DNA of 25,444 nt. Source: a virus (taxonomy: Duplodnaviria > Heunggongvirae > Uroviricota > Caudoviricetes). This document shows, in pieces, positions 25,001-25,444 of the stretch. A program made the position numbers. The DNA is taken from IMG/VR virus record IMGVR_UViG_2698536681_000003. The stretch is one strand, 5' to 3'. Position 1 is the stretch's first letter; every line of letters begins with the position of its first letter.

Positions 25001-25444
25001 ACCCTAACAATAGATCGGAATTTTCTTAGAGTCAATGGTCACTGTTTTTGCTTGCAAAGCAAATGTTTTGGTGGTTATAAGTCGTCTTAATATAGTCACG
25101 CATGCAACTTGTTCCATGCGGAGATTAAAGATTGGAATATAACGCGAAGATGGAATTAAATTACATTTGCAATAATTAATTTATTATTACTCAATAATTA
25201 CCGATATTATTATTGTAAATTAATCATTAGAATGCAAAAAGAAATGTAACGGCAAAATAAGAGGACGATAGCTGAGAAAAAAGCGTGCTTTCCCAATCTG
25301 GGGCAAATCACGTCTGAATGACACCTGAAAACAGGTGGTAGCCTCAAGAAGGCTGGTGATGCTGCCAACTTACTGATTTAGTGTATGATGGTGTTTTTGA
25401 GGTGCTCCAGTGGCTTCTGTTTCTATCAGCTGTCCCTCCTGTTC

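What the first reader, a model, noticed from the sequence alone, without database searches (positions are those of the whole stretch)
25355..25444. IS1 inserted at the right edge of the prophage accessory region
The last 90 bp of the window match the IS1 left inverted repeat and the first codons of insA. An IS1 here may have truncated cargo genes, may mark a rearrangement or deletion boundary, and adds to the signs (lom frameshift, variant cosN) that this prophage may be degrading.
Basis: partly seen in the sequence, partly recalled or inferred. Interest (0 to 1): 0.5.

Follow-up and report, generated by a model that had tools for sequence, protein, structure and literature searches.

The report
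IS1 copy ending a Shigella contig
The last 90 bases are the start of an ordinary, complete IS1 insertion sequence in the accessory region of a lambda-like Shigella sonnei prophage; it replaced about 740 bp of non-coding DNA upstream of an already broken regulator gene, and the window stops there only because draft assemblies break at repeats.

Summary
Window 25355-25444 is the first 90 nt of IS1: left inverted repeat 25355-77, insA GTG at 25410. It has 0 mismatches and none are expected by chance.

The window is a Shigella sonnei draft contig bounded by repeats: an IS2 end at 1-89 and the IS1 start at the right end. Complete S. sonnei genomes match the window essentially exactly. They show a full 768-bp IS1 with no target-site duplication. 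Its right end lies 15 nt before the ATG of a frameshifted patE-like AraC regulator gene. IS3-family remnants, a P4-type integrase and tRNA-Arg (argW) follow.

Viable lambdoid phages (mEp332, PhiR70_1, ev099) and 97 E. coli genomes carry the IS-free allele. 73 E. coli genomes share the same left junction with a 550-bp deletion. S. sonnei has a 741-bp deletion. Nested right-hand end points on a fixed left junction point to IS1-mediated deletion.

No intact cargo gene was truncated. What was lost is a spacer holding a serU tRNA fragment and, in S. sonnei, the promoter-like site of patE.

"Right edge" and "truncated cargo" do not. The decay signs are real (lom deletion, variant cosN, two further IS), but the structural genes are called intact. 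This is ordinary and already annotated.

The parts
25355..25444 (+). First 90 nt of an IS1 element, cut off by the end of the window or contig
   Evidence: Identical over all 90 nt to the start of the IS1 in L001. 100% identity in at least 5000 plasmid records annotated as IS1. 0 chance matches. Continues as a complete 768-bp IS1 in S. sonnei genomes identical to the window.
25355..25377 (+). IS1 left terminal inverted repeat (IRL)
   Evidence: GGTGATGCTGCCAACTTACTGAT. It pairs imperfectly with the right end ...AAGTTGGAGTCATTACC seen in L017 and L001.
25410..25444 (+). Start of insA: GTG start codon, 11 codons (VASVSISCPSC) plus 2 nt
   Evidence: The CDS of the IS1A transposase starts at IS1 position 56 in L001. 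The full InsA matches NCBIfam transpos_IS1 and IS1_IS1595_Zn.
25346..25354 (+). The 9 bp directly left of IS1 (AAGAAGGCT), the expected left copy of a target duplication; it is not repeated at the right end
   Evidence: The right flank is AATTGGGTG in S. sonnei and CTTATTGGC in E. coli L001.
24606..25354 (.). AT-rich spacer (31.5% G+C) between the tail-fibre assembly gene and IS1, i.e. the retained left flank of the insertion and deletion
   Evidence: G+C. No annotated gene in the E. coli loci. 98.5-99.2% identical in phages mEp332, PhiR70_1 and ev099, where it continues into the 550-bp segment that IS1 replaced.
1..89 (+). Last 89 nt of IS2, the other repeat-bounded end of the contig
   Evidence: 100% identity to regions annotated as IS3-like element IS2 family transposase, for example on the F plasmid NC_002483.1. 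A complete IS2 sits at this place in S. sonnei-type genomes (L030 4858-6086).

Best explanation
The 90 bases are the left end of a complete, apparently functional 768-bp IS1. It lies in the non-essential accessory (b-like) region of a lambda-like prophage of Shigella sonnei. The window is a short-read contig that breaks inside multicopy IS elements at both ends.

Shown: in the source lineage IS1 sits between the AT-rich spacer after the tail-fibre assembly gene and a point 15 nt upstream of a patE-like AraC regulator gene. It has no target-site duplication and replaces 741 bp that IS-free alleles carry.

Inferred: IS1 first inserted at ...AAGAAGGCT. DNA to the right of its right end was then lost by IS1-mediated deletion. 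The mechanism was either intramolecular transposition from the right end (adjacent deletion) or recombination with a second, directly oriented IS1. This produced a 550-bp deletion allele now spread among E. coli prophages, and a longer 741-bp deletion in S. sonnei.

Consequence: a spacer holding a serU tRNA remnant was lost. In S. sonnei the promoter-like site of the regulator was lost as well, and that gene is also frameshifted there. This is typical Shigella IS-driven decay of accessory DNA.
For: IS1 identity.

Source and continuation: the exact tail-fibre protein of the window is in 3688 blocks. Loci L017, L018, L020 and L021 contain window 24416-25444 exactly. Window 12829-25444 matches L017 and L020 over 11,587 nt with 2 mismatches. 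L020 is CP019689 (S. sonnei 75/02) and L019 is HE616528 (S. sonnei 53G). IS1 is complete at 768 bp, with Zn_ribbon_InsA, HTH_Tnp_IS1 and DDE_Tnp_IS1 domains.

Contig break: the 25,131-bp draft contig L024 ends at the IS1 boundary, and the window starts with an IS2 end.

No duplication and a deletion. The IS-free allele with the extra 550 bp is in L002 and L003, in 97 E. coli genomes and in three isolated phages. The same left junction with a 550-bp deletion is in 73 genomes. 79 genomes have the left junction. None has the S. sonnei right junction.

Common descent: SNP 24931A is shared by the window and all IS1-bearing loci and absent from all IS-free loci.

Contrast: independent IS1 copies in the same module do have 8- and 9-bp duplications.

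Literature: a missing duplication is usually due to adjacent deletion or IS-IS recombination (PMC11708052). IS1 is the most abundant expanded IS in Shigella (PMC7373316).
Against: The window itself ends 90 nt into IS1, so everything to the right is inferred from genomes identical to it, not read in the window.

No intermediate allele (IS1 with a duplication and no deletion) was found in complete E. coli genomes, GTDB species representatives or JGI metagenomes. The order of events and the deletion mechanism therefore remain inferred.

The IS1 copy in S. sonnei differs from the copy in the E. coli allele at 6 sites spread over positions 127-757. This requires gene conversion, IS-IS recombination or an independent insertion at the same nucleotide. 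Common descent of the left junction rests on identical position and orientation plus one linked SNP.
Confidence: 0.88

Rival explanations
1. The deletions arose by homologous recombination between two directly oriented IS1 copies: the one at the shared left site and a later insertion further right. This removed the DNA between them and one IS1 copy. It was not intramolecular transposition.
For: The S. sonnei IS1 copy carries the S. sonnei-type variants at all six diagnostic positions (127-757) and a canonical right end, unlike the E. coli allele copy. That is what a crossover near the left end with a newly inserted resident IS1 would give. IS1 has inserted independently, in the same orientation, at least twice more in this module. 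S. sonnei carries very many IS1 copies (PMC7373316).
Against: No allele with two IS1 copies flanking the segment, each with its own duplication, was identified. One E. coli genome with two IS1 copies at the locus (H110) was not examined. The sequence difference can also be explained by gene conversion among IS1 copies.
Confidence: 0.3
2. IS1 inserted independently at exactly the same nucleotide and in the same orientation in the S. sonnei prophage and in the E. coli prophages (a target hot spot). The two deletions are then unrelated events.
For: The two IS1 copies differ at 6 of 768 positions. The window's flank has three private SNPs within 300 bp of the junction. The region is AT-rich and repeatedly hit by IS1.
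Against: The junction is identical to the base and in the same orientation. SNP 24931A is linked to all IS1-bearing loci. Both alleles lack a duplication, which would require two independent insertion-plus-deletion histories starting from the same base.
Confidence: 0.12
3. The 90 bases are only a solo IS1 end or an assembly chimera, not a whole element at this place.
For: Only 90 nt are visible, and the window ends there.
Against: Several complete genomes identical to the window across the junction carry the whole 768-bp element with both ends. 79 complete E. coli genomes have the same junction.
Confidence: 0.02

Closest known systems
IS1 (IS1 family; IS1A-type iso-forms of E. coli and Shigella)
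   Same: Same 768-bp length and same terminal inverted repeats. It has insA and insB' with a programmed frameshift, and zinc-ribbon, HTH and DDE domains. The visible 90 nt are 100% identical to IS1.
   Different: This copy has no 8-9-bp target duplication, because the flanking DNA was deleted. That is a property of the insertion's history, not of the element.
IS-mediated adjacent deletions and IS-IS recombination deletions (classically described for IS1 in the gal region by Reif and Saedler, from my own knowledge; reviewed in PMC11708052)
   Same: The IS is retained. One junction is fixed while the other varies (550-bp and 741-bp deletions). The duplication is missing.
   Different: No time series or intermediate allele is available here, so the two mechanisms cannot be separated.
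PatE (Z0321, OI-8) and the PsrA/PsrB group of prophage-borne AraC/YdeO/GadX-like regulators of EHEC
   Same: In E. coli loci the gene just downstream of the IS1 is 246/247 identical to ECs_0287 of Sakai prophage Sp1. It matches the YdeO and GadX models below their cut-offs. PatE is described as a prophage-encoded activator of acid resistance (PMC10877973).
   Different: That ECs_0287 equals PatE (Z0321) rests on my memory that Sp1 corresponds to CP-933H/OI-8. In S. sonnei the gene is frameshifted near codon 137 and has lost its promoter-like site.
Accessory (b-region) cargo of lambda-like phages such as mEp332, PhiR70_1 and ev099
   Same: Same order: tail-fibre assembly gene, AT-rich spacer, AraC regulator, IS3-family remnants, then the integration module.
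   Different: Those phages lack IS1 and keep the 550-bp segment. They use a lambda-type integrase and core site. In the S. sonnei prophage the cargo abuts a P4-type integrase next to argW.

Membership tests
IS1 family insertion sequence | Imperfect terminal inverted repeats of about 23 bp (left end GGTGATGCTGCCAACTTACTGAT; right end ...AAGTTGGAGTCATTACC) | tested here: met
   The left repeat is in the window at 25355-25377. The right repeat is present in genomes identical to the window and in L001.
IS1 family insertion sequence | Element length of about 768 bp | tested here: met
   L017 12415-13182 and L001 6911-7678 are each 768 bp. This cannot be read in the window itself, which holds only 90 nt.
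IS1 family insertion sequence | insA and insB' reading frames, joined by a programmed -1 frameshift into a transposase with zinc-ribbon, HTH and DDE domains | tested here: met
   RefSeq annotates an 'IS1-like element IS1A family transposase, programmed frameshift'. Pfam Zn_ribbon_InsA, HTH_Tnp_IS1 and DDE_Tnp_IS1 hit the 232-aa product in L017. NCBIfam transpos_IS1 and IS1_IS1595_Zn hit InsA. The window holds only the first 11 codons of insA.
IS1 family insertion sequence | 8-9-bp direct target duplication flanking a simple insertion | tested here: not met
   The left flank is AAGAAGGCT and the right flank is AATTGGGTG (S. sonnei) or CTTATTGGC (E. coli). The absence is explained by the accompanying 741- or 550-bp deletion. 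Other IS1 copies in the same module have 8- and 9-bp duplications. This is a mark of the insertion event, not a criterion for the element.
IS-mediated adjacent deletion | IS retained, one junction unchanged, DNA lost from the other IS end, no duplication, and nested end points among relatives | tested here: inconclusive
   The pattern is present: a shared left junction with two different right end points. IS-IS recombination gives the same product, and no intermediate was found.
PatE-type prophage AraC regulator (the neighbouring gene) | Intact AraC-type HTH protein nearly identical to the EHEC prophage regulator | tested here: not met
   The E. coli loci are 246/247 identical to Sakai ECs_0287. 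In the window's own lineage the gene is frameshifted into 167-aa and 58-aa pieces. The gene lies outside the window.

The most novel reading that the evidence does not exclude
The AT-rich region upstream of the patE-like regulator is a recurrent IS1 target. At least three independent insertions were seen, all in the same orientation, in prophages at three chromosomal sites. The IS1-with-550-bp-deletion allele sits in at least three different bio-region backgrounds, so it may have spread on a still infectious phage. This could reflect selection to rewire or silence an acid-resistance and virulence regulator, with IS1 travelling as phage cargo, rather than neutral decay.
Probability: 0.12. Interest if true: 0.35.

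Novelty: already known. Interest (0 to 1): 0.12.

Why it matters
It matters little. IS1 is the most abundant expanded insertion sequence in Shigella, and this copy is already annotated in complete S. sonnei genomes.

There are three practical lessons:
- The window is a repeat-bounded draft contig, so its ends say nothing about the edge of the prophage.
- Four masked N runs create false ORF anomalies.
- The IS1 marks a real but small deletion that removed only spacer DNA and the promoter region of an already defunct regulator gene.

The comparison does give a tidy natural example of nested IS1-associated deletions. It also shows that the cargo module (spacer, serU remnant, patE-like gene, IS remnants) is carried intact by viable lambdoid phages.

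Tried and rejected
- The exact junction was scanned in GTDB species representatives to find the source: 0 hits. The source was found instead by exact-protein look-up.
- Intermediate alleles (IS1 with a duplication and no deletion) were sought four ways. A synthetic junction query against complete E. coli genomes found only an unrelated independent insertion. Pattern scans of genome contigs and metagenome contigs found nothing.
- A composite transposon was considered and rejected. There is a single IS1 at the locus in L017, and a second copy 5.5 kb away occurs only in one strain, L023.
- Loss of a gene or RNA in the deleted 550 bp was considered. There are no ORFs over 70 aa and none is credible. 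No Rfam family reaches its gathering score. No complete tRNA is present.
- Small ORFs in the retained spacer gave no PHROGs match. Rfam gave only IS009 inside the tail-fibre assembly gene and a sub-threshold MicC hit.
- The look-up with the DUF1398 protein returned non-Shigella places and did not help.
- The PatE paper PMC3416394 is not held.
- A fixed-offset comparison of the window with L017 failed because the N runs are longer than the sequence they mask. BLAST was used instead.

Full report
**Observation**

The last 90 bases of the window (25355-25444) read GGTGATGCTGCCAACTTACTGATTTAGTG....
- They are identical to the first 90 nt of a complete, RefSeq-annotated IS1A in a related E. coli locus (L001).
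- They are 100% identical to IS1 in at least 5000 plasmid records.
- They occur once in the window, with none expected by chance.
- The left inverted repeat is 25355-25377. insA starts with GTG at 25410 and the window holds its first 11 codons.

**What the window is**

The window contains four runs of N: 3025-3419, 17806-18089, 20023-20464 and 24113-24415. These explain the odd ORF lengths in the terminase, J/lom and tail-fibre assembly genes.

The first 89 nt are the right end of IS2. The window is therefore bounded by about 90 nt of a multicopy IS at each end, which is the signature of a short-read contig.

An exact-sequence look-up of the window's 1027-aa side tail-fibre protein found it in 3688 blocks, mostly on contigs of 20-50 kb.
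- Complete genomes L017, L018, L020 and L021 contain window 24416-25444 exactly.
- Window 12829-25444 matches L017 and L020 over 11,587 unmasked nt with 2 mismatches.
- L020 is CP019689 (S. sonnei 75/02) and L019 is HE616528 (S. sonnei 53G) (PMC5447701).
- A 25,131-bp draft contig (L024) ends exactly at the IS1 boundary.

The source is Shigella sonnei, and the window ends in IS1 because assemblies break there.

**What lies to the right**

In these S. sonnei genomes the IS1 is complete at 768 bp (L017 12415-13182). It has a canonical right end and zinc-ribbon, HTH and DDE transposase domains.

Its right end is followed by AATTGGGTGGATGAT and then the ATG of a 247-codon AraC-family gene, so IS1 ends 15 nt upstream of that gene.
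- In E. coli loci this gene is 246/247 identical to ECs_0287 of Sakai prophage Sp1.
- It resembles YdeO and GadX.
- I take it to be the PatE type of prophage regulator (PMC10877973). The ECs_0287 = Z0321 equivalence is from memory.
- In S. sonnei it is frameshifted near codon 137.

After it come IS3-family remnants. Homology to lambda-like accessory regions ends at L017 14726. A 385-aa P4-type integrase, tRNA-Arg(CCU) (argW), a formate/nitrite-transporter-family gene and mlaA follow.

The IS1 is therefore inside the accessory region, not at its edge. I infer that this prophage is integrated at argW with the integrase next to the cargo region.

**Comparison with IS-free relatives**

The 749-bp AT-rich spacer left of IS1 (31.5% G+C against 54.7% for the window) is 98.5-99.2% identical in the isolated phages mEp332, PhiR70_1 and ev099. 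It also occurs in lambda-like prophages next to ybhB-bioA in E. coli.

In the IS-free alleles...AAGAAGGCT is followed by 550 bp and then CTTATTGGC.... 97 of 5426 complete E. coli genomes have this allele.

73 genomes have IS1 at exactly the window's left junction, with those 550 bp missing and no duplication. 79 genomes have the left junction.

In S. sonnei a further 191 bp are missing, 741 bp in all. None of the best-scoring complete E. coli genomes listed has that right junction; a one-piece match would have ranked first.

The window shares SNP 24931A with all IS1-bearing loci examined and with none of the IS-free ones.

Two other IS1 copies inserted independently in the same module of prophages near paoD. 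They have normal 8-bp (GAAAATCT) and 9-bp (CATGTTCAG) duplications.

**Mechanism**

- Shown: the left junction is shared, the right junctions are nested, and there is no duplication.
- Inferred: IS1 inserted at ...AAGAAGGCT, and DNA to the right of its right end was later lost by an IS1-dependent process.

The usual causes of a missing duplication are adjacent deletion and recombination between IS copies (PMC11708052). I cannot separate them, because no intermediate allele was found.

The S. sonnei copy differs from the E. coli allele copy at six sites across positions 127-757 and matches another S. sonnei IS1. This favours recombination or gene conversion with resident copies for the S. sonnei step, and leaves a small chance of an independent insertion at the same base.

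**What was lost**

The 550 bp contain no credible ORF and no Rfam family at its gathering score. They hold the last 62 nt of tRNA-Ser serU plus 278 bp of the chromosomal DNA that follows serU in nearly all E. coli, but no complete tRNA.

The extra 191 bp lost in S. sonnei include the only good promoter-like site upstream of the regulator gene, TTGGCA-18-TATACT, whose -10 hexamer ends 34 nt before the ATG.

No intact cargo gene was truncated by the IS.

**Is the prophage decaying?**

The signs are real:
- lom has an 83-bp frameshifting deletion between CTGGCG repeats.
- cosN reads GGGCGGAAGGCG instead of GGGCGGCGACCT. This variant is seen only in the S. sonnei-type loci, while other loci with the identical portal protein keep the canonical site.
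- The prophage also carries IS2 upstream of cos and another IS1 between a porin gene and the holin gene.
- The regulator gene is frameshifted.

Against this, the terminase, portal, capsid, tail, J, side-fibre and assembly genes are called full length in the complete genomes. The IS1 lies in a region with no recognisable phage function.

IS1 expansion is the norm in Shigella (PMC7373316).

**Verdict**

The feature is ordinary and already annotated in public genomes.

Noticed in passing
window 1-89: The window begins with the last 89 nt of IS2 (100% identical to annotated IS2 copies). Both ends of the window are therefore IS ends, and the window is probably a whole draft contig. In complete S. 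sonnei-type genomes a full IS2 sits here, between a KilA-N-type gene and the DUF1398 gene, about 1.1 kb upstream of cos.
   Followed up: yes
window 3025-3419, 17806-18089, 20023-20464, 24113-24415: There are four runs of N (masked sequence), each 32-48 nt longer than the sequence it replaces in L017. They create artificial ORF fusions and splits in the terminase large subunit, J, J/lom and tail-fibre assembly genes.
   Followed up: yes
window about 20804-20806 (lom): lom carries an 83-bp internal deletion between short CTGGCG direct repeats, which shifts the frame. S. sonnei genomes call a 160-aa truncated Ail/Lom product.
   Followed up: yes
window 1159-1170 (cosN): The 12-nt cohesive-end site reads GGGCGGAAGGCG, against GGGCGGCGACCT in lambda-like phages. 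That is five clustered changes in otherwise conserved flanks. The variant is found only in S. sonnei-type loci (L030, L032, L033). Other loci with the identical portal protein keep the canonical site. Whether terminase can still cut it was not tested.
   Followed up: partly
L002 7451-8000 (minus strand); also L003 and L007-L009 at 4750-5299: The 550 bp that IS1 replaced contain the last 62 nt of tRNA-Ser serU plus 278 bp of the chromosomal DNA downstream of serU (about 97% identical to the serU locus of nearly all E. coli). This is core chromosomal DNA carried inside the cargo region of viable lambdoid phages. It suggests that the patE module once came from a serU-integrated element that excised imprecisely.
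   Followed up: partly
L017 13198-13940: The patE-like AraC regulator gene next to the IS1 is frameshifted near codon 137 in S. sonnei, including strain 53G. It is intact in E. coli loci and in phages.
   Followed up: yes
L004 3727-4494; L005 3975-4742: Two further independent IS1 insertions lie in the same spacer/patE module of prophages near paoD. One has an 8-bp duplication and is present in 16 genomes. The other has a 9-bp duplication inside codons 3-6 of the regulator gene. Both have the same orientation as the window's IS1.
   Followed up: partly
L017 14644-16037: In S. sonnei the lambda-like cargo region runs directly into a 385-aa P4-type integrase next to tRNA-Arg(CCU). The related E. 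coli prophages end at the lambda attachment site beside ybhB-bioA. The same cargo module is thus attached to different integration modules.
   Followed up: partly
L001, L012-L015 (bio region): The IS1-with-550-bp-deletion allele sits next to at least three different sets of ybhB/bioA/bioB/bioF protein variants. One of these sets also occurs with the IS-free allele (L003). The tail-fibre genes upstream differ too. This suggests horizontal spread or recombination of the IS1-bearing allele.
   Followed up: partly
L012 362-1101: In E. coli AR_0369 the prophage has lost everything between the small terminase subunit gene and lom (the two partial genes abut). It still keeps the IS1 and the regulator gene.
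   Followed up: no
window 24871-24972 (minus strand), terminator-like hairpin 24722-24698: There is a 33-codon ORF for a hydrophobic peptide (MKIQSKLIVLLNIIIAFILFELLAQKFGLSTLF) in the AT-rich spacer, followed on the same strand by a strong terminator-like hairpin. It has no PHROGs match and is not annotated in the related records.
   Followed up: partly
window 24400-24565: Rfam family IS009 (RF02111) matches the 3' part of the tail-fibre assembly gene above its gathering score (157.5 against 117 bits). The match is cut at the 5' side by the N run.
   Followed up: no
L030 1278-1975: Another IS1, in the opposite orientation, lies between a porin gene and the holin gene of the same S. sonnei prophage.
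   Followed up: no
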